A stretch of DNA of 64,000 nt from a virus. Shown in pieces: positions 14,201 through 55,843 of the stretch (positions are counted from its first letter, which is position 1; the number at the start of each line of letters is the position of its first letter). Made by a program: the position numbers and the translations under genes. The stretch spans positions 32,001 through 96,000 of the IMG/VR virus record IMGVR_UViG_3300045994_000055. One strand, 5' to 3'. The notes beneath the pieces were generated by a model. It was not told the DNA's origin. It saw nothing but the letters and a program-made list of their open reading frames with translations, and made no database searches.

Positions 14201-17200
14201 CAAATACATATGCTGCATTGCTTGCACCAACAATGATAGTACGGCCATATAAGTCGCAATTGATACTTACACCAAAATTGTCACCAGGTGCCGTATCAGC
14301 AGCTGGTAATGCACCACGATACTTGTAATTGGTGGAGTAATCTATAGATATTTTTTCAGTAACAGGTAACGTAAATGTTAGAGTACTACCAGCTATAGTC
14401 GTGGATACTGTATAGTCTATATTTAAAATATACGCTGCACTGCCTTGCACTATGACGTCAGGTGAGTCAATTGCCACTGGTCCAACATATCCGATATCTA
14501 AATTAATCGTTGGATATGGGTTAGCAAGAGTACTATCAACCCACTCATATATATGAACTAATCCGCCGTTAGATGCGCCGGGCTCAGAAATATACAACCA
14601 ATTCCCATCATTGGATGAGCATATTGATGCACCGTAATATGCGTTTGTCGCAGGAAGTGGTGACACTAATACTTGTTGTAATGCAATGCCTGTTCCATTT
14701 TCTATCTTATAAATGTAAACGTGGCCTTGGTGTAAATCGTTGACACCTGCACCTTTGCTCTTGCTTGCACCAACAACCATGACACGGTCGTTCAAGTCTA
14801 GCGAATCACCAAAACCTAATGTGCCGCTTGCGCCGCTTGTGTAGCTGCTATGTTGGACCCAGCTTGCGTTTTCTATATACTCACCAGTGGCTTGGCGCAC
14901 AAAGCTTGATACGCGACCATTGCCACTGTCAGGCGACCCTACATACAAGAACTGCTTGCTCTTACTTGCTTTAACTGTTTTACCAAAACTATTTCCAGCG
15001 TAATATTCGCTGATATTAGGAATGGTTTTTGTTGCGTATGCCCATGGCTCATTGCGACGGTAAACACCCCAACCATTAGATGATGCGTTATCAACCCATA
15101 AGTTGTCATTGGCTGTCCATCCATATAGAGGGCTAGCCGTTTGAATATCTGCAACTGTTTTTAACCTGCTTGAAGATAGTTTAAACAACATAGCAGAGTC
15201 GTATATCACCTTGGCTTTTTGCAATGTGGTATACCCAGTAACTATAGCAATAGTGAAATTCAAACTATCTATTACATCGTATACTTGATAAAAGCCGTCA
15301 AACGACGTAAGTGTATCGTTTACGGTGTAGCTGAATCCCTTAAGCGCAATAATATCACCGATTGCCATTTGGTGTGGGCCGTTGGTTGTAACTGTGCCTA
15401 AGTTGTCCATGTTGTAAGTCAATGATACAACGTGAACACCTGTCTCGGACACACGATACACATTCCAGCTACCACTGAAGTCTTTTGCAGTCCAAATAGT
15501 ATAACCAGTACCGATGTTAGCAATGGATGATGACAAATTACGATAATCAGCAAAATCAAATATTGTTGCATCGACATCGTCTATTCGTGGGTAACCCGCG
15601 ACTGGTAATGTAATCTTGTCAGCTGATGTTTGATGTGTATCAAACATCTCTGGTGAGTTGTTTTTAGATGCGCGGTATATATCCATTGGATAATATGCTG
15701 TCGCACCAAATACAGGTGTCTCGCCATCGTGTAAAAACTGCAATGCTGCTGGATTTGCGGTAACTGCCAAATCACTAAGTATTACCTCAGCGTAATGATT
15801 GCTTTCCGTTGCACCGTATTCACCTACACGTAATGCCCACTCTTCATATACATTGATAGAGGTAGGGGAGCCATTGATCTCAGCTGATGACAACGCAGTC
15901 ACCGCATCAAGCGTGCCTTTTTGTTTTATGTAACCTTGATAGAACTTAACTTGGGTTTCTGCATCTATCAACAAATCAGTTAAGTAATTACGTTCCCTGA
16001 ATCCTGTCAAGCCATTGCTATAGAAGTTGACCGACTCATTGAACGGCTGATTATCAACATCATATACAGACTCAAACATCTTAGCATTGTTTGCAAAGTT
16101 AGGCATCAACCCGATTTTAAGTTGTGCCTGATCAATTTGCTTCCAATCTGCGGTAACAAAATCCACTGATGCTACTACATCAGTCAATGCAGTGTAATAC
16201 AAATCCTTAAACGTTACTAGCTGGCCCTTGCGGTAATCCACACCAGATTGCCAGATGTCATACTTTGCATCATTGTAAATAAAACCTGGTGGGTTCAATA
16301 CACCAGACCAATTTGCAGTTTTGTATCCCACAAACTTCAAACGATATTGGCGATTGCCAGTGTCTGCAGAATAAATGATATCATTGAATACTGTCGTGTT
16401 ATCAAAAATAATGACGTGCTCGTATTGCACTAAGCTTAACTCAGCTAACGCTATTGACTGCCCTGAAAAACTAGTTACCGTAAAATCATTATCGGACCGA
16501 ACTACGGTGAAGTTGGTGTTCTTAATAGTACCAAAATTTGGATCTAATAGCTTAGAGCCTGTTGGGGTGTTAACAATCTCATCAACTACTGAATTGGTTG
16601 CTGCCACTCGTAATTTGCTGTGCACTGGGCTCAATACTATTATGTTGCCAGGAGCCCATCCTTGTTGCGCCCAAGTTAAAAATTCCTTAGCAGACAAGAC
16701 CCAATCTTTTTTCTCGCCTAAGTCTAGGTCAGAGTCAATGAATATGAATCCTTGGCTTTGCAATGAACGTTGGTAGCTTACTAAGAAATCCACGACTTCT
16801 TGTGTAGACGTAAATTCGTAACCGTATGCAATTTTTTGCAATAAAGAATAGTAATCTTTAAAAATAGTACCAGTAAGTGCACCAACTTTAATAGAATAAG
16901 CATTATTGGAGGCTTGTGATGGGATGATAGTGAAGTAGGGGTTGCTTAAGTCGTAACCAGACACAGTGTAACCACCAGCACTCTTCTCAACAATAACCGC
17001 AGAGTAAACTATCTTCTCAACAGGGACAGATTTGTTTAGGATGATACTGTAGTTTTCGTCAGGGATAACAATACTGTTATTGGTAGACGATGGGCTACCT
17101 TGTTCAGCTAAAATCTTCAAGAACTTCTTATCAGTATAACCAGCTACCTTGTAGTTAAGCTGTACAGACACGTTCTTCAACGCTGTCTTAATTTTTGCTT

Positions 17201-20200
17201 GTGGGTCTCCAATTCCTAAGTTCTTTAAGTAGTCAGCAATCCAATTTACGTAACCCGCAGTGCGGATAACGCCACCACTAGATGTATCACCGTTGACTTC
17301 AATTGATGTAGGAGTTAAGTGCTGGTGTGTAGTCTTGTTGACGTATTGCATTAACCCGGCATCCATGCTGTAACGCTCCACATTGGCATATAAGCCAAAA
17401 TACATCGCTGGTTTAGTTAAAGCCATTGCAATTTGCACTGCGTAAGCATAGTCAGAACTCTTACGCCATGCTGCTTCCGCAGGACCAACATCACCAATTG
17501 CAAAACTTGTATTGGCTTTGGAGCCGTCAAAATCAAGCACTGCATACTTTTCGGGGCTTAACAAATTGCCTGCATCGTCTACCGGGATAAGACTTAGTAA
17601 GCCAGGACGTGCGTAAGTCGTGTCAATACCCGCACGTTCGCCTGCGTGGATGTAGCCCAAACTTAGGTCAGTCCATAGCGTTAAGTTACCACCAGTGTAA
17701 GGCGCTGGACCGTAACGGTCTTGCCACCACGTAGGTTTGTCGCTGAAGCCTAGCATTTCCCAAGGGTGGGTATGTGGGCGCATTGTATCATAGTAATACA
17801 TGAAAATCGCACGCCAGCTTCCCGGTAAGAACTCTCCATCAACCGTGTCACGGAAGTTTTTGTAGTTCCATGTCCATGGGTTACTGCCTTGGAAAAACTT
17901 GTTGGCCGTAAAATCTAAGCGATTTGCGCCCGCCCACACTAGGAAACTGTTAGACAAGATTTGGTTATATTCCGCTAAGTTGTAATCGGTATTACGGAAC
18001 TTGCCAGGTGTATGATCGGCATGCATCGATACATCATATACTGCTTTGATATTATTAAAGATCCGCATCTCTAATTCTAATAGCAAGTCATCTCTATAAT
18101 CATTGAACGCTGGAGTCAAACTACCATCGTGGCCTTGTATTACGTAATTAGGTGTTACATACGTATTATCTAAATACTTGGTTGGTGTGAATTTTGGGTA
18201 AAGGCCTAACTTAGACGGTGTCTCAGGAACAAAATTACCGTCAGTATTAGAGTACTCAACGATAGATAAAATATCATTGTAGTTTAAGTTATATGTATCC
18301 GCAATCGTAATAGACGGAGCATCCGCATTAAAGGAATAATCTCTGCCTTTTGCTAACAATGTTTTAGTTGTATTGTTGCCCACTGATCTACTAATGTAAA
18401 CCAATACTGCTTTATTGCTTAACACTGTATCATCAAATATAGATGTTAACTGGTACGACTTAACTCGAGGGTCCAGAATTGCGTAGTCAGGTAGCACAGT
18501 CTTAGCATCGCCGTGTGGAAGCATATCGCTGTAGTACCACGGGAACGAACTATTTTTAATACTATTGATTTGCTTGATAATTGCATCCGCAGTTGCTGGT
18601 ATATCAGTCAAGCTTACGTTAGTTGTTGTAGCTAATTCTAAGAAACGATTCTTGAATTTAGTGTATTCGCGTTGAGCTAACTTCACAGAGTCAACAAAAT
18701 TCATTTGTTGATCTACTAAGAATAACTCGCTGTACAGAACTGGCGCTGAGTGTTTAAGTATACTGCCGCCCTGTAACTTTATGTTAAGGTCGCGCAAGTT
18801 ACTTGTGCCTGGTACAGTTCCGGTGACGTCCATACTGTTACGATACAATGTAACCAAATGGTTACGCATTTGGCCAAGTGTTAGTGTCGCAAAGTTTGCA
18901 TTTTCCGCATTGTTGTCAAGGTTGGAAGGAACTTGGTAGAACCCCAATGCACTAGCGGTTTTACTGTAGATTAGAATATCAACAGAATCATTAGCTGCTA
19001 ACAATGTAGAGTCAATGACTACTACTGGACGGATGCCAACTTGAGTTAGACCAAATTTTGCAGTGTCAACAAATTTACTATTAACTAATACCTTTATGCT
19101 AGGGACGGTGTCCGGTGCTTCAGGTAGTATGTCCACTTCAAATACATTGTTTACACCGTCTGCGATGTAGGAAATTAATTGGTACTGCTTTGTAAATTCG
19201 TTAGTAAGTGTCCACCCATTAGCAACACTAAACGTAGAAATATCACTCGTGATATGTAACAAACCAGTGTTGACAGGTACAGTGTAAGTAACTGGCCCAA
19301 TTAAGTAGGAAAAAGTATCAGTGTCAAAATTATTAGAAAATTGGATATCACCAACATTGTTGAATGACCTGTAACTAAGTGGGAATCCCAATACTGTGTC
19401 ATTTGCTCCTGCCCCTGTCTTGTACGAGAAAATAGGAGTACCTGTGAAGTTAGTATTTGTATAGAATGATGTATCACCAAAACTAATACCATTCTTATCA
19501 AAAGCATCAAACAATGGAGCCTGGTTCGCTGCTAATTTGGATTGACTTGCAAGCCATTCAGAACCGTTAAACCAAAACTCAGTGGTTGTATTATTTTTAA
19601 CTACAACAGAGTTACCAGTAGCAATGATCGAATCAGTTGCTTCAATCAAGCTACCAATGTACTCCGCAGAGAAAGGATCGTTACTAACATTAACGATGGT
19701 GAATGTGTAAATTTTGTTACGAACAATAGTGCTAGTATCCTTGCTGAATACGACTCTATCGCCGTGGCGTAAAATAACCGTCGCACCTGCCACAGTTGTA
19801 ACAAACAATGTTGCACTGATTGCTGGGACAGCTTCGATTTGTGTATACGCATTTGTTATCACAGAGTCCAAAATATCAATTGGTGCTTTCGCCACTGTAC
19901 CGTGATTAAACAATTTTGTATTGCGCTGAATTTCAATGATAGGACGTTTTGCTGACGCATTTTGGTCAAGAAGTAACTCAGTACCATTGAACTCCGCTAC
20001 GTACTTAATGACGTCTACGTGTGTCCAACGATTGCTACGCGACCATGCATTCAAATCAGCCGACGCCCTGTTGACTGTCAAGTAATCATGCGTTACTGGT
20101 TGTAGTGCCAAATTAAGTTTAAGGCCAGTTCCAGAACCACCAATGACAGTCACGGGGTTTACTGGTAACGTACTATACAGACCGCTTGAGAGTATTTTAA

Positions 20201-21833
20201 AAGTTGTCACAGTGCCAGTTGCACTAACCCCTGTAATTAATATCGTCGCAGGCTGTGTGTATACTCCACCAGTGGCGGTTAACAAATCATTGACTTTGTA
20301 TCCTACGCCTTGTGCAATTTCTGAAACTGTGCTGGTCGCCCAATCCTCAATTGATAGCAAATGGTCAGCAGGTACTAATTTAATCGATTCACCAACACCA
20401 GATACATAGTAAGTGCGATTTGCAAATTCAGGAGTTACTGAGTGATCAAATGTAATCTGCAATCCACTTGTAAATGTCACACCATTAGGACTAACATAAT
20501 ATTGTTTGCCTTCTATGTCAACTAATGGATTTAGTATATCATTGACTGGTTGCACTAATTTAATGGTTCCTACTGCGCTTGCAGTTGAACCAGATTGGTA
20601 GTACAATGTGTCAAGTGCAGCGGTTGTTGAAGGTACTAGTGTAAAACGATCGTAGTAATCAACATAGAAATCTTTGGTTGCATTAGCGGAACCTGATTTA
20701 ACGTACACTTTTTCGTTTACTGCGACTGCTTGCTGTGGCGACAGATTAATGTACCCATCACTGTCAACTGTAATCAACCATGTTGAGCTACGTGCAGATT
20801 CGACCACAGTGGCGCCCATCGGTACATTCATTGTCCATGGTAATTGATCCACGCCAATGGCGCTCAGCATAAATGCAGCATCAGTGTTAGTTAGTGCCGC
20901 AGTGCGGGTAGTGGAAGCTGTCCAATCTAAATCGTCGTAAACACCACCAACAAAAATAAGAGTCTTGTTATGGATATTTCCTGTCGTGCCGTCTAATCCA
21001 CTAATAGTATTGAACGTTGCAAGACTTACGGCCTGAATATCTTTGTACGATAACTTTGTGGCGTAATCTACACTGGCCGCAGTGTTCATTGACATGAATC
21101 TAAGCTGTGTGTCTATTTGTGGCACGTTAAATGTTACGGAACCAGTGGATGCCCCATTATTGAGCACACCAAATACATCGCGTGTGCTTACGTTTGGCCT
21201 GTTAGCATCAAGACCAGTCATTCCGGGTTGTGTTTGAATCCAGAATGGATTGGTGCCGTCTACGTTGAACGTATACGAGCCACCGTATGCAAGCGTGATG
21301 TCAGCGTTGTTCACCATGCCAGTACCAAAGTAATAGGTATTGGTACCAGTGTTAAAATGTACGTCCCACGAATAATTTAGTGGTACCCCGTTTGCAGAAA
21401 CCACGACAGAGTCTGGTCCATTAGGCAACCAGTAGTATTGCGAGAAGTTAACAAACTTGTCTAAGTCTAGTAATCCAGAATAGCTATATGCTTGGTTACT
21501 GAATAATCTTGAATGATTATCTACATTGCCACCATAGTATGCAATCTTGTTAATTAAGTCAGGATACGATGCATAAAAATCTGTCGTACCAGCTTGGGGA
21601 TTGTTAACTATTACCCCTGGTTCAACTTGATAGTGTTGACGGGAGTCTGATGGCTCAGCTACATAGCCATCGCCAACTTTATACGTAGGGGCAAATTTTC
21701 TACCTATATAACCAGAGACCTTTTTAAAGTTTGGTTCGCTTGTTAACTGGTCTAATGTAGCATTGAGGAACTTTTGGTTCGTGTCTGTACGGAAGACTTC
21801 TGGTAGAAAATTATGTGTCTTAAATGCGGCCAT
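8217..21833 (-). CDS. Giant virion structural protein (4538 aa), baseplate-wedge associated
   Basis: Uninterrupted 13.6-kb ORF directly after the gp6-like gene; FG-GAP-like propeller repeats (FGKTV...GSP, FGDSL...VGA) and GSGYT repeats. Confidence 0.75.
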   Translation of the reverse strand: MAAFKTHNFLPEVFRTDTNQKFLNATLDQLTSEPNFKKVSGYIGRKFAPTYKVGDGYVAEPSDSRQHYQVEPGVIVNNPQAGTTDFYASYPDLINKIAYYGGNVDNHSRLFSNQAYSYSGLLDLDKFVNFSQYYWLPNGPDSVVVSANGVPLNYSWDVHFNTGTNTYYFGTGMVNNADITLAYGGSYTFNVDGTNPFWIQTQPGMTGLDANRPNVSTRDVFGVLNNGASTGSVTFNVPQIDTQLRFMSMNTAASVDYATKLSYKDIQAVSLATFNTISGLDGTTGNIHNKTLIFVGGVYDDLDWTASTTRTAALTNTDAAFMLSAIGVDQLPWTMNVPMGATVVESARSSTWLITVDSDGYINLSPQQAVAVNEKVYVKSGSANATKDFYVDYYDRFTLVPSTTAALDTLYYQSGSTASAVGTIKLVQPVNDILNPLVDIEGKQYYVSPNGVTFTSGLQITFDHSVTPEFANRTYYVSGVGESIKLVPADHLLSIEDWATSTVSEIAQGVGYKVNDLLTATGGVYTQPATILITGVSATGTVTTFKILSSGLYSTLPVNPVTVIGGSGTGLKLNLALQPVTHDYLTVNRASADLNAWSRSNRWTHVDVIKYVAEFNGTELLLDQNASAKRPIIEIQRNTKLFNHGTVAKAPIDILDSVITNAYTQIEAVPAISATLFVTTVAGATVILRHGDRVVFSKDTSTIVRNKIYTFTIVNVSNDPFSAEYIGSLIEATDSIIATGNSVVVKNNTTTEFWFNGSEWLASQSKLAANQAPLFDAFDKNGISFGDTSFYTNTNFTGTPIFSYKTGAGANDTVLGFPLSYRSFNNVGDIQFSNNFDTDTFSYLIGPVTYTVPVNTGLLHITSDISTFSVANGWTLTNEFTKQYQLISYIADGVNNVFEVDILPEAPDTVPSIKVLVNSKFVDTAKFGLTQVGIRPVVVIDSTLLAANDSVDILIYSKTASALGFYQVPSNLDNNAENANFATLTLGQMRNHLVTLYRNSMDVTGTVPGTSNLRDLNIKLQGGSILKHSAPVLYSELFLVDQQMNFVDSVKLAQREYTKFKNRFLELATTTNVSLTDIPATADAIIKQINSIKNSSFPWYYSDMLPHGDAKTVLPDYAILDPRVKSYQLTSIFDDTVLSNKAVLVYISRSVGNNTTKTLLAKGRDYSFNADAPSITIADTYNLNYNDILSIVEYSNTDGNFVPETPSKLGLYPKFTPTKYLDNTYVTPNYVIQGHDGSLTPAFNDYRDDLLLELEMRIFNNIKAVYDVSMHADHTPGKFRNTDYNLAEYNQILSNSFLVWAGANRLDFTANKFFQGSNPWTWNYKNFRDTVDGEFLPGSWRAIFMYYYDTMRPHTHPWEMLGFSDKPTWWQDRYGPAPYTGGNLTLWTDLSLGYIHAGERAGIDTTYARPGLLSLIPVDDAGNLLSPEKYAVLDFDGSKANTSFAIGDVGPAEAAWRKSSDYAYAVQIAMALTKPAMYFGLYANVERYSMDAGLMQYVNKTTHQHLTPTSIEVNGDTSSGGVIRTAGYVNWIADYLKNLGIGDPQAKIKTALKNVSVQLNYKVAGYTDKKFLKILAEQGSPSSTNNSIVIPDENYSIILNKSVPVEKIVYSAVIVEKSAGGYTVSGYDLSNPYFTIIPSQASNNAYSIKVGALTGTIFKDYYSLLQKIAYGYEFTSTQEVVDFLVSYQRSLQSQGFIFIDSDLDLGEKKDWVLSAKEFLTWAQQGWAPGNIIVLSPVHSKLRVAATNSVVDEIVNTPTGSKLLDPNFGTIKNTNFTVVRSDNDFTVTSFSGQSIALAELSLVQYEHVIIFDNTTVFNDIIYSADTGNRQYRLKFVGYKTANWSGVLNPPGFIYNDAKYDIWQSGVDYRKGQLVTFKDLYYTALTDVVASVDFVTADWKQIDQAQLKIGLMPNFANNAKMFESVYDVDNQPFNESVNFYSNGLTGFRERNYLTDLLIDAETQVKFYQGYIKQKGTLDAVTALSSAEINGSPTSINVYEEWALRVGEYGATESNHYAEVILSDLAVTANPAALQFLHDGETPVFGATAYYPMDIYRASKNNSPEMFDTHQTSADKITLPVAGYPRIDDVDATIFDFADYRNLSSSIANIGTGYTIWTAKDFSGSWNVYRVSETGVHVVSLTYNMDNLGTVTTNGPHQMAIGDIIALKGFSYTVNDTLTSFDGFYQVYDVIDSLNFTIAIVTGYTTLQKAKVIYDSAMLFKLSSSRLKTVADIQTASPLYGWTANDNLWVDNASSNGWGVYRRNEPWAYATKTIPNISEYYAGNSFGKTVKASKSKQFLYVGSPDSGNGRVSSFVRQATGEYIENASWVQHSSYTSGASGTLGFGDSLDLNDRVMVVGASKSKGAGVNDLHQGHVYIYKIENGTGIALQQVLVSPLPATNAYYGASICSSNDGNWLYISEPGASNGGLVHIYEWVDSTLANPYPTINLDIGYVGPVAIDSPDVIVQGSAAYILNIDYTVSTTIAGSTLTFTLPVTEKISIDYSTNYKYRGALPAADTAPGDNFGVSINCDLYGRTIIVGASNAAYVFDRSVENFIMVGTSNTVTTKRSIDSSFKVLLDGAEQKLNTEYIQYGQVVQFFVAPAAGTIVSIENNHFTLITKLTGIPGQQFGSNVIMCDDASSMYVSAPAYDGGVHKFTNPAKLYGVITGTVVNPVITAGGEIRINNVDVLLGGTTLASVIDSINSSGIPGITASNYEGKLRIASATIGVNTFNVLPGISRLAFDALGLSTYPASQIINHPLSNVSEVFGIAMSISEDENTLAISSSGATTIVGMVFDTNTTDFDSGSTVFTHATVDSGAVYVFDLINNPHATVDSPSVFEYTQVLKPGAMSTGMMFGAAVEIMGKSIFVGSAGDKMYDIAGGSVFEFFNAVNYKGWQLVRTETPQVDYSSISKAFVYNKNTQSILARLDIYDPAKGKILGIADQDLDFKTEQDPASYNNGIDGFSLDFHWSDLQLGKTWWDLSQVRFVNYEQGSLDYKNTHWGNTFPGSKFKVYEWTASEYIPSQYVANGGNGVPKYLDDSYFVTHMYVDKSTNVIKSKYYYWVGDKTTVDTNLTNRTNSGYTIQQILSNPRDQGIPYIAAIAPTAVSLFNINNYLVGQAIALHIDHTPIQNTNIIHTEYELVKENTNSEIPHRIIDKLQDSLSGINFAGHAVPAPALSVAARYGIDIRPRQTMFVDRQTALANFVKYINNVFAQYPIANLRNLNKLLNGEAKPAAGTGEYDKILVTKNELGYILKTNLTDGYKVLVNNDTDYDGLWTIYVWSASKAEWTLSRIQSYLTSLYFKYADWYDASYSKTTIPSYTIAAYPLISKLTLVNGDVVKVLDDGNGKFAIYRATATLTLDKVASEEGTIQILPTLYDLEAGNMGFGNDNFDTIRFDQNPILETRDVFSAVSDDIFIADLQIEFNKLFFSLVNYIYTEQSAPDWIFKTSFLSVVHNIRELAQYPSYIKDNQTYYEDYINEVKPYRTIIREYLPTQSTTDFLHTGVTDFDLPSYYDTISNTYRSPSGEQYYDAERLATDVNYADWNNHHTYKVVEIAVSASGDNYTTAPIITISGGGGTGATAKASQPVGGKVLTVTITNPGSGYTSIPTVTVNGNGEGLVLVPLLRNEFKVDVGHSYNTVRSVTTELKFDRITYDTQVVQWEPNTEYFATLGSSDSSSSQQYLWAGDAGHFESNIGIVDFSGILMAGTITGGTAQVLFNTSNAAEPTVWLESGVLVAYGGDIYLPVIPTESAQSATIKHVWHAGPTNDTRPLDSSHNPSPVPPPQVAGFTFVAQDAQGIQSVLEFSIPVSALHDLFDYSKFVKLDQGNVLITNNDRITGYYAPGEGMPGNSLTQLVNGIEYPGVTITGSKYSEDTVIGTFAVSSDILQHSVTPDVTGFFFKTGSWTLETFQTGDVLPPGYNIGDTKPTGMWIDGIVGGVISGPPESYIVNASVNFEYYIAQASAITLDVWGNVASQTANLSSTDLTDPTVGQFFQLTNNIVMPSSPTAGDGDIRINWLTGKWIIDNTEPYLDSSKVSKIEFATAMPLSALVIAGNQIDSTIASAYKDVRKFYGNGDVKSLGLGERPEDILIDGGQYYDTFSSHAPEEMMPGRVYETLDIQVLQANTNGFDTNVFTISSITVQDVGYGYDDAASIVDKASKGVDVTGIIPVHVTVNGINNANLVPVLAANGAITSFTIVSSGAGLTINSNPAIVITGTNIAPAHATAILSQSQYELIGWRDFYDMNGKVSYTRILPKYTTSLTQDLHITDTVVHVDNIYILSYPSVDLDAPGRVFINGELITFYGVDEANSTLTQIRRAAEGTGGAALHAAGSFVVDAGGDQIIPGTSYVPDVTVQGGPEIRHGDNVTTVFETHFINTIYPETVKVTVAGKKVTNFEVIQTHPVKIKFVRIGSNPYTPGFIPAAPALGAEIIISAAVEGIWENVLASDFGAFTLTTEAGFVPVGWDVLTQGIPPTTWDLGTQIMDGVTIQTDPVLTAMGFSWNSGGLSGDYLGTVPASVGAITDGGGMMLSTTIQSRFIRGEI

Positions 21834-50681: not shown

Positions 50682-52589
50682 ATGGAACAAGACAAACACG
50701 TATGGTCAGCTGAGACCATGGTAGCAAACACTGCTAAACCACGACGTAAAAACGTAAATCCCGTAATATACGAACACAACGTTACTAGGAAAACTAGGCT
50801 TACTCTAGTTATGATGGGTTGTTGGGGCGTATACTTTGCACCTTATAACATCGCTAGGTTATCTGCCTTAACTAAAGAAGCAGGCTATGCTACTAGATCC
50901 TTTGATTTCAACGTAGACTTGTATACCACATTCAAATCTAATGGCTTAGACAAAGCGTGGGACTCTATCAATTACTATTGGTGGAACGATGGCAACTACC
51001 AAGACAAATTGCACGATGCGGCATTGCCTCATTATGCTGCTTACTTAGACAAGATTGTGGCATCAAATCCTACCGTTGTTGGATTTAGCATTTACGACAC
51101 AAACAAAGTACCTACGTATTGGATGATACGTGAACTTAAGAAACGCTTGCCATTTGTGCTAGTTATTGCAGGTGGACCATCCTGCCACAATCCAGAGTAT
51201 GAGGCAATAGACGAAATTGATTACTACGTTGTTGGTGAGGGAGAGCAAATCCTGTTAGACATGCTTGAGAACTTTGAAAACAACGTACTGCCAGAGACTA
51301 AGAAACTAGGTACCTCGTACAGTGATTCCCGCGTTGATATTGATAGCTTGCCTTTCCCTGACTACAGCGAATTTGATTTGTCTTTGTATACAAACGGTAC
51401 GGGCGTTAGCGCAGAGATCAGCCGCGGCTGTGTGGCTAAGTGTAGCTTCTGCACAGAGACTTGGTTCTGGAAGTTTAGAGACCGCCAAGCTAACCGCATA
51501 TTGGACGAAGTAGAAGACCAAATTAAGAACTACGGTATCACCTATGTATGGTTTATTGATAGCTTAGTTAACGGCAATCTCAAAGAGTTGCGCACGTTTG
51601 CAAAAGGCGCCATTGAGAAGCAGTTCAATATTAGTTGGATGGGGTATGTACGCTGTGACGGGCGTATGGATGCAGATTACTTCAAAGACTTAAAGGACAG
51701 CGGCGCCCACTATCTAAGCTTTGGCGTTGAAAGCGGCTCACAAAAAGTACTGGACTTAATGAAGAAGAAGGTTATGGTCTCTGAGATAGATGCCAACATG
51801 CGCGATTGTAAAAACGCAGGCATTACTGTGCATGTTAACTGGATAGTAGGCTTTCCTAATGAGAACATCAAAGCACACAATGACAGCTTGATACTACTGT
51901 GGAACAACCGTAACTACATGGATCTAATAAGCACGGGCATGACATTGGGCGATAGCAGAGGAACAGACTTTGAGTTCAACCGAGAGCAATACAGCATGAG
52001 CAATTGGGACGACAAGTTTTGGGGATGGTGGTATTCTAAAGATCTGAGTAATACAAAAGTGCACAGGCTTGTGAGAATGAAACTGCTTAATATCTGGCTA
52101 GACATTTGCTATAATAACGGCGTGTTATTCAATACTCAGCGCCGCGACATTGACTCGCACTATACACTATCTAAGCTAAAGTTAGTTAACCCGCCAGACA
52201 ATATTACGCTAGATGATTTTGACTTCAACATTATCAAAACTGATCTTGGTAATTTTGCTGACACGCTAATGAATGAGATATGGGCATTTTTACGGCTAAT
52301 GTATAGAGTAGCTGGTGGCTTTGAGATTACACTGCGTTTCAACCGCGAGGAAGACTTAGTCGCATTTGGTGACGTTATGATGGTTGACCGTTACGATGCA
52401 ACATACAACTTTAGTATAACTGATGACGGTGAGTGGAATGCAGACTTTGTATTTGCGTTGCAAGACAACGACGAATGGCGCTTACCTATACACCCAGACA
52501 AAAGCTTTACACATCACTATGTAGGAACGGGGCAGTGGACCAATGCCCAAACTGCCCTGAACAAAAAGATAATATGGATTCAATCTTAA
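50682..52589 (+). CDS. Cobalamin-binding (class B-like) radical SAM protein
   Basis: VGFS...AGGP...VVGEGE B12-binding domain; SRGCVAKCSFC; GVESGSQKVL; IVGFP.E. Confidence 0.88.
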   Translation: MEQDKHVWSAETMVANTAKPRRKNVNPVIYEHNVTRKTRLTLVMMGCWGVYFAPYNIARLSALTKEAGYATRSFDFNVDLYTTFKSNGLDKAWDSINYYWWNDGNYQDKLHDAALPHYAAYLDKIVASNPTVVGFSIYDTNKVPTYWMIRELKKRLPFVLVIAGGPSCHNPEYEAIDEIDYYVVGEGEQILLDMLENFENNVLPETKKLGTSYSDSRVDIDSLPFPDYSEFDLSLYTNGTGVSAEISRGCVAKCSFCTETWFWKFRDRQANRILDEVEDQIKNYGITYVWFIDSLVNGNLKELRTFAKGAIEKQFNISWMGYVRCDGRMDADYFKDLKDSGAHYLSFGVESGSQKVLDLMKKKVMVSEIDANMRDCKNAGITVHVNWIVGFPNENIKAHNDSLILLWNNRNYMDLISTGMTLGDSRGTDFEFNREQYSMSNWDDKFWGWWYSKDLSNTKVHRLVRMKLLNIWLDICYNNGVLFNTQRRDIDSHYTLSKLKLVNPPDNITLDDFDFNIIKTDLGNFADTLMNEIWAFLRLMYRVAGGFEITLRFNREEDLVAFGDVMMVDRYDATYNFSITDDGEWNADFVFALQDNDEWRLPIHPDKSFTHHYVGTGQWTNAQTALNKKIIWIQS

Positions 52590-52747
52590 GTATACTTCAA
52601 AAGTAAGAAGCTAACAAGCTCATCCTTCTCTACTGTGATCTCGTACCCGTTAACTAATTTGGTAAACGGGTAGTGCTTAATCTTATTCTCTTGCAAATAT
52701 TTAAGCACTGCGGTTACGTCACTCTTCGGAATCGTCAGACTCATCAT
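52586..52747 (-). CDS. Small hypothetical protein
   Basis: MMSLTIPKSD...LLKYT, overlapping the 3' end of the upstream gene. Confidence 0.5.
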   Translation of the reverse strand: MMSLTIPKSDVTAVLKYLQENKIKHYPFTKLVNGYEITVEKDELVSFLLLKYT

Positions 52748-53291
52748 AATACTCATCCTCGTCAAAGTAGTCAACGTTCTTAGTAACCGCCTCATCATAC
52801 ATTTTATAGTACGGCTCGTTCGGCATCAACTCACGCAAGTCCTTTACAGTGAGCAACAGTGCAGTCAACTCATCCTTCTTGTGTACATCAGTTACATAGA
52901 AAGTAGTAGTGCAAACACCACCAATAGTTTTTATGGGCCCATGCTTAACCTCTAAGCTTTGTAACGAGTCCTGCAACTGCTTGCCCCACTTAGTAATAAC
53001 ACGGGTAATGCCCTTAGCGGTATTGCGCAAAACACTCTTATCGTGATTCGTCGCAGAACGTATTGTCGCCTCGTTATTGTCGTCTATCGTCAAGTGACAG
53101 TCCTTGAACTTAAAGCTACCTTTGGTGTGCGGGTTATCCTTAGTCTCTTTAGTGCTCCAAGGCATGTTACATTCAACGTGCTCGACGTAGTATGTTTTGC
53201 CTTTAGTTTTGATAACCCACATTGGGATAGTGGGGTCTTCTAAGTGCTTCTTGTTGAAGTGAAACACAACTTCTTTACAAACCATTTCCAT
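52719..53291 (-). CDS. Hypothetical phage protein
   Basis: 190-aa ORF with GGAG SD, starting 1 nt after the stop of the Pth2-like gene; acidic tail. Confidence 0.75.
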   Translation of the reverse strand: MEMVCKEVVFHFNKKHLEDPTIPMWVIKTKGKTYYVEHVECNMPWSTKETKDNPHTKGSFKFKDCHLTIDDNNEATIRSATNHDKSVLRNTAKGITRVITKWGKQLQDSLQSLEVKHGPIKTIGGVCTTTFYVTDVHKKDELTALLLTVKDLRELMPNEPYYKMYDEAVTKNVDYFDEDEYYDESDDSEE

Positions 53292-53292
53292 T

Positions 53293-53667
53293 TTATTCTC
53301 CTTTATCCATTATGCTGTATGCTTTGCTTGCACGGAATTTGTACAAACTAAACTTCTTGAAAATTTCCTTTTGCTCTTCGTAGTAGATAGGTTCAGTCGT
53401 AAGACTTGTAAACCCTGTCTCATAGTCAGGCTCGTGGAACATGTGAAATTTAATGCCGTTGTTGATCAAGTGATCACCGGCCTTCATCAACGCTGCTTCG
53501 TTCTTAGCCTCTAGTAATACTAGGAACGTGTTTGTTGTTGGATTTCGATTCTTGAAATCCCGCCCGGATTCCTGTGCGGAATGGGCAGCTTGCACAATTT
53601 GAGTCTCGATTGGTAAGTCCGAGCGAATAAAGGTGTAGCAGTAGTGTTTGCCGTCTATCTATTTCAT
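53293..53667 (-). CDS. Pth2-like peptidyl-tRNA hydrolase with an in-frame amber codon at codon 3
   Basis: AGGAG-8 nt-ATG AAA TAG ATA GAC...; YTFIRSDL...QAAH...LVLL...F.EPD...TS...P are Pth2-family motifs; the RSDL motif lies upstream of the track's GTG start. Confidence 0.75.
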
Positions 53668-53696
53668 TTTGATTTCTCCTTGGTTAAAATGATCGT

Positions 53697-53785
53697 AAAA
53701 AAGCCCGTACGAGAACTCTTCCTCTAATTGGAAGCTCTGGTCCGGGCTAAAAGGGTAATAGTTAATCTATTGCATTATGTATTTA
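53697..53785 (-). promoter_or_regulatory. TAAATA promoter and structured leader/terminator upstream of the Pth2-like gene
   Basis: tattta at 53780-53785; agcccg(53702-53707)/cgggct(53743-53748) with inner cttcc/ggaag, ending in a U-run. Confidence 0.55.
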
Positions 53786-53796
53786 GTCTAGCACAA

Positions 53797-54681
53797 TTAC
53801 GCGAAGATTTCAAGTGCTGTGCCGCATTCTGTACAAAATTTTGCATTCGCTTTGTTCATTTTGCCGCAAGTAGTGCACTTTGGCTTTGCTTTTACTGTAA
53901 CTGGTAGCAGCACGGGCTTATTGTCAGGGGTTTCACCCAACAGTTTAAGCACAATGGAATGCTTTTCTGGCAGCACTGGGAACCAGCTTGCAGTAGCAAA
54001 CTTTTGATCGCTCTTGGAACCAGCAACGGTGATGCCAGCATCGTTATAGCTTACGTTCTGTGCTTGCGCAGTCACATTGTTCAACGATGCATTGGTAACG
54101 GATGCGGAAGCACCAGACGCAAGTACACTGCGAGCAATGCTCGACTTGAATGGTACTGGCTCATTGCTGCTGAAGGTGGCGTCACCGCTGCTCCATTGTG
54201 CATTGTTAACTTGGGAGATGGTGTTACCTAGTCCCTTGAAAATCATTCCATCTTGGCGCAAGCCAGTATGTTGCTGCTTCCACACGTTTTGTTGGTAGTC
54301 CCAAATCGTAGTTCCAGCGAATGTAATTGGTAGGTGTTCGAACTGATACGAGATGTTGATGATACCGTCTTCGATACCAATGCCCTTATGTGCTTCGATT
54401 TGTGCAGTGCGCTCAATGAATTTGAACTTATTGCCTGCTGAGAGGTTGCCGTTCTTGATCCAGCGTTCCAAATCAATGGTTTGTCCTGCGAGCAGCACTA
54501 AGCCGCCAGGACAGACATCAGTACCGTCAAGCGTAATGTTTACGATGGCGCGGACCGTGTTGAGATTTTTAAGAACTATGGAGTATTCTGAGCCGAATGG
54601 GATATAAACTGTATCCTTGAACTCACGTAAGATTTTGCCGTTAGCTTTTAGGCTCGCAACGAGCTTTTGATTGTACATCAT
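53797..54681 (-). CDS. Hypothetical protein with C-terminal zinc ribbon
   Basis: CTTCG...FCTECG; AAGGA SD; TAAATA at 54759-54764. Confidence 0.8.
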   Translation of the reverse strand: MMYNQKLVASLKANGKILREFKDTVYIPFGSEYSIVLKNLNTVRAIVNITLDGTDVCPGGLVLLAGQTIDLERWIKNGNLSAGNKFKFIERTAQIEAHKGIGIEDGIINISYQFEHLPITFAGTTIWDYQQNVWKQQHTGLRQDGMIFKGLGNTISQVNNAQWSSGDATFSSNEPVPFKSSIARSVLASGASASVTNASLNNVTAQAQNVSYNDAGITVAGSKSDQKFATASWFPVLPEKHSIVLKLLGETPDNKPVLLPVTVKAKPKCTTCGKMNKANAKFCTECGTALEIFA

Positions 54682-54761
54682 TATGTTTCCTTTTTACTGC
54701 TTTGGACTACAAGCACAATTTATTAAAGTCCAGATTTGCTACAACCGAGTAACAAAAATAT

Positions 54762-55154
54762 TTATCTCGGCAGCACGACGTGCAGACGAAACTTTTTCCT
54801 AGCATAGCGCACAGTAGCCCAAGTACCAGATCGTACTTCTTCTACGCTGCGCATTGGGGCAGCAAACAAAAACTCGCATTCATCTACGATGTTCTTGTCC
54901 CGCGTCAAGTAATCAAATTGGGGTCTTAACTCATCACCCACACAATATGCACGAGCTATCTGTGCTTTTGGTGGGTGAACTACGATTCTGGCATCTGGGA
55001 ACGAGTTTTGGACTATCATGTGTGCCTCAGCGTCTGCGCCCATGCAATCACCATGATGAAACTCAGTCATACCCATTTTACCGAGAAGCATGTAAAAGCT
55101 TTCGACTTGGGAATCACTCATTCCTTCTCTCGAACCAGTAAATCCAATTTTCAT
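54762..55154 (-). CDS. SLOG-superfamily (DprA/YspA-like) protein
   Basis: IGFTGSR, HHGDCMGAD, R.KNIV, SGTWATVRYA motifs. Confidence 0.75.
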   Translation of the reverse strand: MKIGFTGSREGMSDSQVESFYMLLGKMGMTEFHHGDCMGADAEAHMIVQNSFPDARIVVHPPKAQIARAYCVGDELRPQFDYLTRDKNIVDECEFLFAAPMRSVEEVRSGTWATVRYARKKFRLHVVLPR

Positions 55155-55163
55155 AGTGTCCTT

Positions 55164-55240
55164 TGGTGCGTTATCCCGGATTCGAACCGAGCACCGTCGA
55201 GTTTAGAAGTCGCCGCTCTAACCAAATGAGCTAATAACGC
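55164..55240 (-). tRNA. tRNA with CUA anticodon (amber-suppressor type), atypical anticodon stem
   Basis: GCGTTAT/ATAACGC acceptor stem, GCTC/GAGC D-stem, TTCGAAT T-loop, A73 and encoded CCA; anticodon loop TT-CTA-AA (CTA at 55204-55206). Confidence 0.85.
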
Positions 55241-55248
55241 ATAGATCC

Positions 55249-55277
55249 AGTGTACATTAAATGCATTATTCTGTAAA
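55249..55277 (-). promoter_or_regulatory. Sigma70-type promoter for the tRNA and SLOG gene
   Basis: TTTACA-17 nt-TACACT ending 8 nt before tRNA position 1. Confidence 0.65.
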
Positions 55278-55372
55278 CATAAATGGCTAAATATCTGGTT
55301 CGCTCTTAAATGAGAGCTCGTGCGAGTAGCCACTCCGCGGGGCTTAGAACGCTCACAACAAAGGAAAATAAA

Positions 55373-55843
55373 ATGGCAAAAGGTATTAAAGTAGCAAATC
55401 AAGCACCAGCAGCACCATTGGGCAGCACAGTAGACGGCTTAGTCAGCGCAGACCAAGGTCAAGCGTCTGGTTTTGGTGGTACGGGTGGCGTTAGTAACAC
55501 AGTTAACGGCAAGGGCGTTAAGACAATAGACGTACAATACAAGACATTGGCTGGTGTAGCAGTTGCACACGGCTTCGTTATCAATCAAAAGGGTTCTGCA
55601 AAGTTCTTAGTTGATGATTCCGCAGCAGCAGGTACTCATATCACTGTAGTTCAACTTGTAAACAAAGCCGCTGGCGCATTAGCAGCAGGCGAAGCAAGCA
55701 TTGCTTGTTACGACACAGCAAGCGCACCTTTCTACGCTCGTCGTATCAGCACAAAGCACGTTTATGACTTCGCAGGCAACAAGTTTATGTACAAGGTTAA
55801 CACCCCAGCTACATCAGCTTACGCTAACGTAGCATCTTACTAA
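55373..55843 (+). CDS. Probable abundant virion protein (e.g. head decoration)
   Basis: AAGGA SD and ATG at 55373; own TAAATA (55288-55293) and terminator; biased codon use like gp23. Confidence 0.6.
   Translation: MAKGIKVANQAPAAPLGSTVDGLVSADQGQASGFGGTGGVSNTVNGKGVKTIDVQYKTLAGVAVAHGFVINQKGSAKFLVDDSAAAGTHITVVQLVNKAAGALAAGEASIACYDTASAPFYARRISTKHVYDFAGNKFMYKVNTPATSAYANVASY

What the first reader, a model, noticed from the sequence alone, without database searches (positions are those of the whole stretch)
53293..55277. Amber-gated peptidyl-tRNA hydrolase paired with a phage-encoded CUA suppressor tRNA: candidate translational switch
Seen: the Pth2-like gene has a strong SD (AGGAG, 53676-53680) and ATG (53667) but reads ATG-AAA-TAG, then continues in frame for 121 codons with intact Pth2-type motifs. 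The only later start in the track (GTG 53595) would delete the RSDL motif. A tRNA with a CUA anticodon lies 1.5 kb upstream on the same strand. Every accepted complete gene in the window ends in TAA or TGA, and none, including the 13.6-kb ORF, has an internal TAG, so this is not genome-wide recoding. Established: start-codon/sense/stop minigenes such as lambda bar cause peptidyl-tRNA drop-off; tRNA-Lys is the tRNA most readily sequestered when Pth is limiting; RF1 reads UAG; prfB autoregulates through a stop-codon-dependent recoding event. Inference: Pth output is set by competition between RF1 and the suppressor tRNA at this one codon. This could act as a sensor or timer for termination/tRNA stress, possibly countering tRNA- or translation-targeting defences.
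Basis: partly seen in the sequence, partly recalled or inferred. Interest (0 to 1): 0.92.

Follow-up and report, generated by a model that had tools for sequence, protein, structure and literature searches.

The report
Stop-codon-locked phage hydrolase gene with key tRNA
A freshwater phage has a UAG stop as the third codon of a small tRNA-hydrolase-like gene and carries its own UAG-reading tRNA nearby; dozens of distant phages keep this lock-and-key pair, so the enzyme is probably made only when that tRNA overrides the stop.

Summary
On the minus strand an AGGAG ribosome site is followed by ATG-AAA-TAG (53667-53659), then 121 sense codons of a Pth2-fold protein. A tRNA with a CUA anticodon lies 1.5 kb upstream.

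It is neither an error nor genome-wide recoding. The same SD-ATG-N(1-8)-stop leader occurs in 12 of 18 GenBank phage loci examined and in 37 of 58 IMG/VR sequence clusters.

The leader stop matches the tRNA. All 25 TAG leaders with a suppressor within 10 kb have a CUA tRNA, and all 3 TGA leaders have a UCA tRNA. The TGA leaders sit at 2-3 separate places on the protein tree.

Relatives that start with a sense codon also keep a CUA tRNA, often 1-23 nt after their stop codon. So the protein family itself is tied to suppressor tRNAs.

Best reading: a gene-specific translational lock opened by the phage's own suppressor tRNA. This gives the 'orphan' suppressor tRNAs of standard-code phages such as XacN1 a conserved target.

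What the enzyme hydrolyses, and why its synthesis is gated, is not known. Nothing here is experimental. My six literature searches found no description. This scan has noted the same layout on other DNA before.

The parts
55164..55240 (-). Suppressor-type tRNA with anticodon CUA and an encoded CCA. ARAGORN labels it 'tRNA-Pyl' only because of the anticodon. The anticodon stem has two non-standard pairs, G27:A43 and C31:C39.
   Evidence: ARAGORN. Rfam tRNA 51.5 bits, with the alignment showing the two marked non-pairs. No PylS in the held record.
55249..55277 (-). Promoter-like site (TTTACA-17-TACACT) that ends 9 nt before the tRNA.
   Evidence: Consensus scan, 9 of 12 matches. The region holds no more such sites than shuffles do (6 against 4.7), so this is weak.
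53676..53680 (-). Shine-Dalgarno AGGAG, 8 nt before the ATG.
   Evidence: Sequence. An SD-like motif is present before the leader ATG in 31 of 36 leader clusters.
53659..53667 (-). Leader ATG-AAA-TAG, the 'lock'. The next codon is ATA.
   Evidence: The same design is seen in 12 of 18 GenBank loci and in 37 of 58 IMG/VR clusters.
53293..53658 (-). Body of the Pth2-fold protein: 121 codons plus TAA.
   Evidence: AlphaFold2 pLDDT 89.4, pTM 0.82. The top Foldseek hits are Pth2/Bit1 structures with TM about 0.7. Profile hits to PDB Pth2 chains. Pfam PTH2 matched in 10 of 11 aligned members at E<=0.1.
53697..53748 (-). Long imperfect hairpin followed by TTTTTT, between the upstream zinc-ribbon gene and the leader. 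It looks like a terminator or attenuator.
   Evidence: RNA fold. The simple terminator scan did not report it. Function not tested.
53767..53775 (-). Second ATG-CAA-TAG, without an SD, in the same frame as the main leader and open all the way to it (36 codons upstream).
   Evidence: Sequence. Upstream mini-ORFs ending in TAG are not enriched among relatives: 8 of 35 loci, against 8 for TGA and 9 for TAA. Probably chance.
52719..53291 (-). 190-aa gene of unknown family. Its ATG lies 2 nt after the Pth2-like stop codon, so it is probably translationally coupled to the gated gene.
   Evidence: ORF list. No Pfam, PHROG or PADLOC match.
53797..55154 (-). Two genes between the tRNA and the leader: a 130-aa protein (weak match to phrog_289) and a 294-aa protein with a C-terminal zinc ribbon.
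   Evidence: The zinc-ribbon protein recurs near the gene in 4 of 58 clusters only, so it is not a core part.

Best explanation
This is a gene-specific translational lock. Ribosomes start at the SD-ATG and meet UAG as codon 3. They finish the Pth2-fold protein only if the phage's own CUA tRNA decodes that UAG before release factor 1 ends translation. The amount of enzyme therefore follows the amount of working suppressor tRNA.

Shown by comparison:
- The lock is conserved.
- The tRNA co-occurs with it.
- The stop codon and the anticodon change together.
- The region behind the stop encodes an essential strand of the fold.

Inferred:
- The tRNA is made, charged and reads the stop. The residue inserted is plausibly Gln, because sense variants carry Gln there.
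- The very early position and the purine after the stop favour read-through.
- The enzyme is an ester hydrolase acting on the 3' end of tRNA (peptidyl- or acyl-tRNA), and its job is tied to suppressor tRNA activity. It either clears by-products of suppression or limits the suppressor itself.
For: 1. Conservation of the leader.
- ATG-N(1-2)-TAG directly precedes the conserved core in 12 of 18 GenBank loci examined. These are CBB, GAP32, Kaldavass, XbC2, fHe-Yen9-03, fHe-Yen9-04, pEa_SNUABM_19, BF, Arash, RsoM2USA, the 595-kb uncultured phage LR756511, and ME3.
- XacN1 and Xoo-sp13 have the leader at the 5' end of a fused form.
- Among IMG/VR loci plus the window, 37 of 58 clusters have a leader: 34 TAG, 3 TGA, 0 TAA.
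- The leader codons differ while the stop stays.

2. Co-occurrence with a suppressor tRNA.
- All 9 leader-bearing GenBank phages that I scanned have a CUA tRNA.
- 28 of 37 leader clusters have the matching suppressor within 10 kb, and 3 more have it elsewhere on the contig.
- RaK2 has a sense start. Its whole genome holds 8 tRNAs and none is a suppressor.

3. Co-variation of stop and anticodon.
- TAG with cta 25, TGA with tca 3, mismatched 0. Fisher p = 3e-4, not corrected for phylogeny.
- The TGA leaders lie at 3 places on the tree. Well-supported branches force at least 2 changes.

4. Position of the suppressor among tRNAs. The tRNA nearest the gene is a suppressor in 39 of 54 clusters. Among all further tRNAs in the flanks the figure is 20 of 244.

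5. Context of the stop. The base after the stop is a purine in 34 of 36 leaders, against 58% purines at first codon positions in these genes.

6. The residues behind the stop are needed. The invariant Arg12 and Asp14 sit in strand 1, before any restart codon.

7. Gene callers stumble on the stop. 64 of 118 database proteins of the family begin inside strand 1. In GenBank the gene is truncated, split or unannotated.

8. Pth2 fold.
Against: - No experiment and no RNA data. No listed sequencing run is on record as RNA.
- This window's tRNA has two non-standard pairs in its anticodon stem and may decode poorly.
- The phages still end many of their own genes with the suppressed stop: 134 of 919 long ORFs end in TAG in amber-suppressor loci, and 24 of 53 end in TGA in opal-suppressor loci. 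Suppression is therefore unlikely to be both strong and general.
- The gate is dispensable. Relatives 91-95% identical are predicted with Gln or Lys at the site (I could not see their DNA). 19 clusters start with a sense codon.
- Linkage to the tRNA persists without the gate, so gating is not the whole reason for the linkage.
- 6 leader clusters show no suppressor. Five are fragments of 48 kb or less. One, a 175-kb contig, was searched only within 10 kb.
- The window protein scores below Pfam's PTH2 cut-off. It also lacks the Gly-Lys loop that aligns next to the conserved Arg-x-Asp in solved Pth2.
Confidence: 0.78

Rival explanations
1. Sensor of release-factor activity. The leader measures RF1 availability (RF2 in the TGA forms). 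Read-through, helped by the phage tRNA, rises when termination is slow. More hydrolase is then made when ribosomes stall at stops and peptidyl-tRNA accumulates. The logic resembles prfB.
For: Only TAG (RF1-specific) or TGA (RF2-specific) is used, never TAA, in 37 leaders. The gene product resembles an enzyme that clears peptidyl-tRNA. This reading is compatible with all the co-variation data, because it adds a purpose to the same gate.
Against: Nothing distinguishes it from plain dependence on the tRNA. No release-factor gene or RF-1 domain is in the held record. The sense-start clade keeps the tRNA but has no sensor.
Confidence: 0.2
2. Mini-ORF with termination and re-initiation. ATG-AAA-TAG is a complete two-codon ORF, and ribosomes restart at the next codon without help from the tRNA.
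For: The codon after the stop is ATT, ATA, ATC or GTG in 13 of 36 leaders. These are known rare or alternative start codons (recalled).
Against: The other 23 of 36 have codons that are not starts, such as GTT, GTA, GTC, AAT, AAC and GAC. Re-initiation cannot explain why TGA leaders go with UCA tRNAs and TAG leaders with CUA tRNAs. It also cannot explain second in-frame TAGs inside the body of some members.
Confidence: 0.05
3. Genome-wide or late-gene recoding of TAG (code 15). The leader TAG would be just one of many sense TAGs.
For: Phage suppressor tRNAs are the hallmark of recoded phages (recalled; the start of the abstract of PMC10879173, seen in a search listing, says so). Some relatives carry 2-3 CUA tRNAs and a second TAG in this gene.
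Against: In the held 134 kb, ORF coverage is the same with TAG as sense (0.94 against 0.94), and no other gene shows the design. In relatives the gain from reading TAG as sense is no larger than for the TGA or TAA controls. The cultured phages are annotated with the standard code. The XacN1 authors found nothing behind 18 amber stops (PMC5852040, passage read). The TAG sits at one fixed place, which recoding would not give.
Confidence: 0.04
4. Sequencing error, or a recently broken gene (pseudogene).
For: A 91% identical relative is predicted with Gln at this codon. If that codon is CAG, it is one transition from TAG.
Against: An independent sample's contig is identical over the site. The same stop at the same place occurs in dozens of distant phages while the protein stays conserved.
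Confidence: 0.01

Closest known systems
Stop-codon recoding in phages with phage-encoded suppressor tRNAs (TAG or TGA reassigned; crAss-like, Lak and others; recalled, plus the abstract start of PMC10879173 seen in a search listing)
   Same: A phage-encoded tRNA with a CUA or UCA anticodon reads an in-frame stop in phage genes while the host uses the standard code. A timing or regulatory role has been proposed.
   Different: Here one gene family is affected and the rest of the genome reads by the standard code. The stop sits at a fixed place, codon 3 to 9. The gene is a tRNA-related enzyme, not a late structural or lysis gene.
prfB (RF2) autoregulation through an early in-frame UGA (recalled)
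   Same: An early in-frame stop in a gene of the translation apparatus sets its own output by competition at the A site.
   Different: prfB escapes by a +1 frameshift and senses its own product. Here the frame continues in phase 0, and escape needs a separate, co-inherited tRNA whose anticodon co-varies with the stop.
Lambda bar and other AUG-NNN-stop minigenes, whose toxicity is relieved by Pth (recalled)
   Same: An SD, a start codon, one sense codon and a stop. Linked with peptidyl-tRNA hydrolase biology.
   Different: The minigene ends at its stop. Here a conserved 121-codon protein follows in frame. The sense codon is not conserved: 21 different last codons among 36 leaders.
Pth2 / Bit1 (PTRH2) peptidyl-tRNA hydrolases of archaea and eukaryotes (PF01981)
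   Same: Same fold, TM about 0.7. Shared Arg-x-Asp, Gln-x-x-His-x-x-x-Glu, and an acidic residue plus Thr in the second half.
   Different: 13-17% identity. Below Pfam's cut-off for this protein. A two-residue gap where solved Pth2 has Gly-Lys. Phage-borne and tied to suppressor tRNAs. Activity unknown.
pylT/pylS: dedicated CUA tRNA beside genes with in-frame UAG
   Same: A dedicated CUA tRNA encoded near a gene that needs UAG read as sense.
   Different: No PylS in the held record. The tRNA aligns to the general tRNA model end to end, 51.5 bits. The residue at the site is not conserved and sits in a disordered N-terminal tail.

Membership tests
Pth2 (PF01981) peptidyl-tRNA hydrolase | Sequence match above Pfam's gathering score | tested here: not met
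   The window protein scores 19.5 bits against a cut-off of 23 (E 0.0012). 10 of 11 aligned relatives match at E<=0.1, best 1.9e-6. Two fused relatives pass the cut-off, at 24.8 and 23.5 bits.
Pth2 (PF01981) peptidyl-tRNA hydrolase | The Pth2 alpha/beta fold | tested here: met
   Model pLDDT 89.4. Foldseek counts 13 matches at E<=0.001 and lists 12 of them. Nine chains are of entries named Bit1 or peptidyl-tRNA hydrolase, or of MJ0051, which the sequence search names peptidyl-tRNA hydrolase (2zv3). The other three (1wn2, 1rlk, 2gax) carry no function in their titles. TM 0.59-0.71.
Pth2 (PF01981) peptidyl-tRNA hydrolase | Catalytic residues (Asp and Thr of the D-A-G-x-T motif, and a Lys in the Gly-Lys loop; these roles are recalled and come from no call) | tested here: inconclusive
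   An invariant or near-invariant Glu76 and Thr84 align with the Asp and Thr. The Gly-Lys loop is a gap in the family profile.
Pth2 (PF01981) peptidyl-tRNA hydrolase | Hydrolysis of peptidyl- or N-acyl-aminoacyl-tRNA | not testable with these tools
   Needs an enzyme assay.
Stop-codon-recoded phage (code 15 or code 4) | In-frame reassigned stops in many genes; better ORFs under the alternative code | tested here: not met
   Coverage 0.94 against 0.94. Only one gene has the design in the 134 kb held. The record is only 38% complete.
Stop-codon-recoded phage (code 15 or code 4) | Phage-encoded suppressor tRNA | tested here: met
   tRNA-CUA at 55164-55240.
prfB-type autoregulatory recoding | Continuation of the protein in the +1 frame after the early stop | tested here: not met
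   The conserved protein continues in frame 0.
Pyrrolysine system (pylT with pylS) | PylS encoded with the tRNA | tested here: not met
   No match to TIGR02367 in the held record. The control genomes respond to the same search. The record is a fragment.
bar-type minigene | SD, AUG, one sense codon, stop | tested here: met
   AGGAG-8 nt-ATG-AAA-TAG.
bar-type minigene | The ORF ends at that stop, with nothing conserved behind it in frame | tested here: not met
   A conserved Pth2-fold protein follows in frame.

The most novel reading that the evidence does not exclude
The suppressor tRNA and the stop-locked Pth2-like gene form a self-contained feedback module. The tRNA licenses synthesis of a hydrolase, and the hydrolase in turn acts on the suppressor's own acyl- or peptidyl-tRNA, or on the peptidyl-tRNA debris of suppression. 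This would hold read-through at a set level. If so, it would be the first natural, gene-specific 'tRNA key / stop-codon lock' circuit in bacteria or phages. It would also explain why standard-code phages carry suppressor tRNAs.
Probability: 0.22. Interest if true: 0.92.

Novelty: new variant of a known kind. Interest (0 to 1): 0.82.

Why it matters
Suppressor tRNAs turn up in many phages that use the standard code, and nobody has known what they read. The XacN1 authors looked and found no target (PMC5852040, passage read). This family gives such tRNAs a conserved target, including in XacN1 itself (ORF364).

The target is hidden from gene callers. The gene is truncated, split or missing in most annotations.

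The finding would also be a natural counterpart of the amber-gated switches built in synthetic biology, with ready-made matched parts in both TAG/CUA and TGA/UCA versions.

Several carriers are cultured phages of laboratory-tractable hosts (Pectobacterium CBB, Serratia BF, Cronobacter GAP32, Acinetobacter ME3, Salmonella Arash). The idea is therefore directly testable.

Tried and rejected
A second ATG-CAA-TAG does lie in frame 36 codons upstream, before a terminator-like hairpin. It has no SD. Among relatives, upstream mini-ORFs ending in TAG are no commoner than those ending in TGA or TAA: 8, 8 and 9 of 35 loci. I did not adopt this idea.

Stop-codon avoidance as a sign of an active suppressor. 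I expected TAG stops to be depleted in amber-suppressor phages and TGA stops in opal-suppressor phages. Instead, TAG/(TAG+TGA) is 0.35 in amber loci against 0.20 in opal loci (Fisher p 0.11). TGA remains the commonest stop in opal loci, 24 of 53. This gives no support and is reported as evidence against strong suppression.

ORF-coverage test for recoding in relatives. It is too crude to discriminate, because removing any stop raises coverage. The verbose list of TAG-holding frames was useless.

Conserved neighbours. Only clade-specific ones were found:
- a roughly 100-aa protein upstream in the sense-start clade (11 clusters);
- a roughly 150-aa protein downstream in another clade (6 clusters).
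Neither has a Pfam or PADLOC match.

N-terminal domain of the XacN1-type fusion. It has an H..HD..IGK motif by eye. Pfam gives no hit at E<=0.05. The protein atlas lists a cluster in which 15% of members carry HD (score 0.96). This is a lead only.

RNA evidence. No RNA holder is listed.

Reads. Contigs of X5 and X7 do not cover the TAG, and X8 covers little of the stretch.

DNA of the closest relatives (P0066, P0099, P0059) could not be obtained, so their Gln or Lys codons are inferred from predicted proteins only.

Literature. Searches found no paper that links a Pth2-like gene to suppressor tRNAs. Only Creative Commons PMC papers and bioRxiv preprints are covered.
Full report
What is in the window.

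On the minus strand the sequence reads AGGAG (53680-53676), 8 nt, then ATG AAA TAG ATA GAC (53667 onwards). The frame stays open for 121 codons to TAA at 53295-53293. The first canonical start after the TAG is GTG 53595, 21 codons after the stop.

One tRNA is found in the window, at 55164-55240 on the same strand, 1.5 kb upstream. It has anticodon CUA and an encoded CCA. It fits the general tRNA model end to end at 51.5 bits, but it has two non-standard pairs in the anticodon stem. ARAGORN's name for it, 'tRNA-Pyl', reflects only the anticodon. No PylS is encoded in the held record.

The record is a 134-kb viral fragment, estimated 38% complete. It occurs in river, wetland and pond metagenomes of several studies. 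A contig from a sample not flagged as a possible source is identical over 53200-54060, TAG included.

It is not recoding and not chance.

The stops of 101 long ORFs in the 134 kb are TAA 81, TGA 16 and TAG 4. The four TAG cases lie outside the window. ORF coverage does not rise when TAG is read as sense: 0.94 against 0.94.

I scanned both strands for SD-ATG-N(1-8)-stop followed by 80 or more open codons. This gave two TAG cases, none for TGA and two for TAA. Only the Pth2-like gene lacks a start codon just behind the stop.

The protein.

Pfam PTH2 matches weakly: E 0.0012, 19.5 bits, cut-off 23. PHROG 1866 aligns from residue 3, so relatives begin where this leader begins.

A profile of 11 relatives hits solved Pth2 chains, 24bt_A at E 7e-4 and 2zv3_A at 1e-3. 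The alignment shares Arg-x-Asp, Gln-x-x-His-x-x-x-Glu, and an acidic residue plus Thr in the second half. It has a gap where Pth2 has its Gly-Lys loop. Pfam PTH2 is matched by 10 of 11 members at E<=0.1.

An AlphaFold2 model built on 41 sequences has pLDDT 89.4 and pTM 0.82. Foldseek counts 13 matches at E<=0.001. The listed ones are human Bit1, archaeal Pth2 chains, and three entries with no function in their titles. TM is 0.59-0.71.

Strand 1 (residues 5-12 after the stop) ends in the invariant Arg12, and Asp14 follows just after it. A start at GTG 53595 would therefore delete an essential part.

The leader is conserved.

tblastn against GenBank phages found 35 records. I fetched 18 loci, one per distinct phage. 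The other 17 rows are RefSeq duplicates or near-identical Erwinia and Klebsiella records.

- Twelve of the 18 read ATG-N(1-2)-TAG directly before the conserved core: CBB, GAP32, Kaldavass, XbC2, fHe-Yen9-03, fHe-Yen9-04, pEa_SNUABM_19, BF, Arash, RsoM2USA, the 595-kb uncultured phage LR756511, and ME3.
- RaK2 and phiKp_21 start with sense codons.
- Four are fused to N-terminal domains.

In these records the gene is annotated truncated, split in two, or not at all.

XacN1 and Xoo-sp13 carry the fused form. Their fused ORFs are preceded, in frame, by SD-ATG-AAG-TAG and SD-ATG-AAG-AAG-TAG, four codons before the annotated ATG.

A scan of IMG/VR with the alignment returned 75 loci. With the window, and leaving out L092 (my motif filter missed it; it is a TAG leader with a CUA tRNA), these make 58 clusters at 90% identity.

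I made three corrections by hand. In L105 and L109 the 'start' that my rule picked is the Met inside the conserved core. In L114 the leader sits at the 5' end of a fusion. After these corrections:

- 37 clusters have a stop leader (34 TAG, 3 TGA, 0 TAA);
- 19 start with a sense codon;
- 2 are other fusions.

Among the 36 unfused leaders:

- the number of sense codons before the stop is 2 in 22, 3 in 5, 4 in 5, 5 in 1 and 8 in 3;
- an SD-like motif precedes the ATG in 31;
- the last sense codon takes 21 different values;
- the base after the stop is A in 18, G in 16, C in 2 and T in none, against 58% purines at first codon positions in these genes;
- 26 have an Ile or Val codon after the stop, which I cannot explain.

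Some members have a second in-frame TAG at one spot in the loop after helix 1: L088, L103, L109, L110, L123, and also L147.

In the large protein database 1920 proteins match at E<=1e-5, nearly all named 'hypothetical'. Of the best 120, 118 hold the core motif. Of these, 64 begin inside strand 1, as expected if gene callers are blocked by a stop.

The tRNA goes with the leader.

Pattern scans followed by ARAGORN found a CUA tRNA in all 9 leader-bearing GenBank phages that I scanned: CBB, Arash (annotated there as tRNA-Phe), GAP32, BF, fHe-Yen9-04, RsoM2USA, LR756511, Kaldavass and ME3. XbC2, fHe-Yen9-03 and pEa_SNUABM_19 were not scanned.

A full scan of RaK2, which has a sense start, found 8 tRNAs and no suppressor.

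Among the 37 leader clusters:

- 28 have the matching suppressor within 10 kb, and none has only a non-matching one;
- whole-contig scans add 3, at about 40-63 kb away;
- of the remaining 6, five are fragments of 48 kb or less, and one (L114, a 175-kb contig) was not scanned beyond 10 kb.

The strongest evidence is the co-variation. The three TGA leaders (L087, L121, L133) have UCA tRNAs and no CUA tRNA. The 25 TAG leaders with a nearby suppressor have CUA. Fisher p is 3e-4, uncorrected for relatedness. On a maximum-likelihood tree of the 58 proteins the TGA leaders lie at three places, and well-supported branches force at least two changes.

The tRNA nearest the gene is a suppressor in 39 of 54 clusters with any tRNA in the flank. 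Among all further tRNAs the figure is 20 of 244.

The link goes beyond the lock.

Of the 21 clusters without a leader, 19 still have a suppressor within 10 kb (17 CUA, 2 UUA). In nine clusters the CUA tRNA begins 1-23 nt after the gene's stop codon. So the protein family, not only its leader, is tied to suppressor tRNAs.

The suppressor tRNAs themselves are diverse class I tRNAs. Some phages carry two or three different ones.

Close relatives of the window's protein are predicted with a sense codon at the site: MKQIDD.. at 91% identity and MTKIED.. at 95%. Compare also MKAALQVQ.. with MKAAL-TAG-VQ.. in L081. Among the 54 database proteins with a full N-terminus, 19 have Gln as the third residue. 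This fits repeated TAG/CAG switching and Gln as the inserted residue.

How it most likely works.

Initiation at the SD-ATG brings UAG into the A site after one peptide bond. Either RF1 ends translation there or the phage tRNA decodes the codon and the enzyme is made. The co-variation shows that the tRNA and the stop are a matched pair.

The rest is inference:

- That the very early position and the following purine favour the tRNA over the release factor rests on recalled work on minigenes and on amber context effects, not on any call.
- That the enzyme hydrolyses an ester at the tRNA 3' end follows from the fold.
- That its role concerns suppression follows from the linkage.

Two purposes fit. 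The enzyme may clear peptidyl-tRNA produced by suppression, or it may limit the suppressor itself as negative feedback. I cannot choose between them.

Evidence against strong suppression.

The carriers still end many of their own genes with the suppressed stop: TAG in 134 of 919 long ORFs in amber loci, and TGA in 24 of 53 in opal loci. Suppression is therefore probably weak or context-dependent.

This window's tRNA has an imperfect anticodon stem. The gate is evidently dispensable in some lineages.

Rivals.

- Re-initiation after a mini-ORF fails on the non-start codons behind 23 of 36 stops and on the co-variation.
- Recoding fails, and on the standard-code cultured carriers.
- Error or pseudogene fails on conservation.
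- An RF1/RF2-sensing purpose is compatible with the data and remains open.

Literature and earlier notes.

Seven full-text searches found no paper that links a Pth2-like gene to suppressor tRNAs.

In the XacN1 paper (PMC5852040; two passages read) the authors report two CUA tRNAs and say they could not identify target genes. They tested only what lies behind 18 amber stops at ORF ends. ORF364, with its leader, is such a target.

Other works named in this report are recalled, not read: phage recoding, prfB, bar minigenes, context rules and Pth2 catalytic residues.

This scan has noted the same layout before on other DNA. 189 notes hold the search words, in at least 139 genomes. I reached my reading before seeing them. 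A later check recorded there put 'what was seen stands' at 85 in 100 and the bold reading at 20 in 100.

Noticed in passing
window 55302-55375 (+): A match to the Rfam 'freshwater-2' RNA motif (30.6 bits, below the gathering score of 49.9, E 0.046). It ends in the SD and ATG (55373) of a + strand gene that begins MAKGIKV...
   Followed up: no
window 53767-53775 (-): A second ATG-CAA-TAG, in frame with the main leader and open to it, upstream of a terminator-like hairpin (53748-53697). It has no SD. The feature is not enriched among relatives.
   Followed up: partly
L002 (Salmonella phage Arash) 2810-2881; record OQ632216.1 49176-49247: The tRNA annotated 'tRNA-Phe' has anticodon CTA by ARAGORN. 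The Pth2-like gene is annotated there as two CDSs split around the leader.
   Followed up: yes
L168 (Xanthomonas phage XacN1) 236-259; L169 (Xoo-sp13) 204-230: The fused ORF (XacN1 ORF364) is preceded in frame by SD-ATG-AAG-TAG. This is a candidate target for the CUA tRNAs whose targets the XacN1 authors could not find.
   Followed up: yes
L088, L103, L109, L110, L123, L147 (IMG/VR loci), loop after helix 1 of the protein: A second in-frame TAG recurs at one loop position (..P-P/G-TAG-D/N-E-H-P-H..). These are double-locked versions of the gene.
   Followed up: partly
L127, L132, L134, L136-L139, L142, L144, L145, L147, just upstream of the Pth2-like gene: In the sense-start clade the order is: a conserved protein of about 100 aa (motif E-F/Y-R-H-x-H-I-A-Y..L-R-G), then the Pth2-like gene, then the tRNA-CUA. 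The small protein has no Pfam or PADLOC match.
   Followed up: partly
36 leader clusters, codon after the stop: 26 of 36 have an Ile or Val codon (ATT, GTT, GTA, GTC, ATA, ATC, GTG) directly after the leader stop. In the model that residue lies in the coil before strand 1. Unexplained.
   Followed up: no
window 8217-21833 (-): A single ORF of 4538 aa (13.6 kb).
   Followed up: no
window 50682-52589 (+): A 635-aa ORF with a CxxxCxxC motif (CVAKCSFC), seen by eye. This is typical of radical SAM enzymes (recalled).
   Followed up: no
L013/L178 (Klebsiella phage RaK2) and L146: Where the gene has a sense start and no suppressor is present, it is flanked by a tRNA-Leu(UAA) gene: upstream in RaK2 and downstream in L146.
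   Followed up: no
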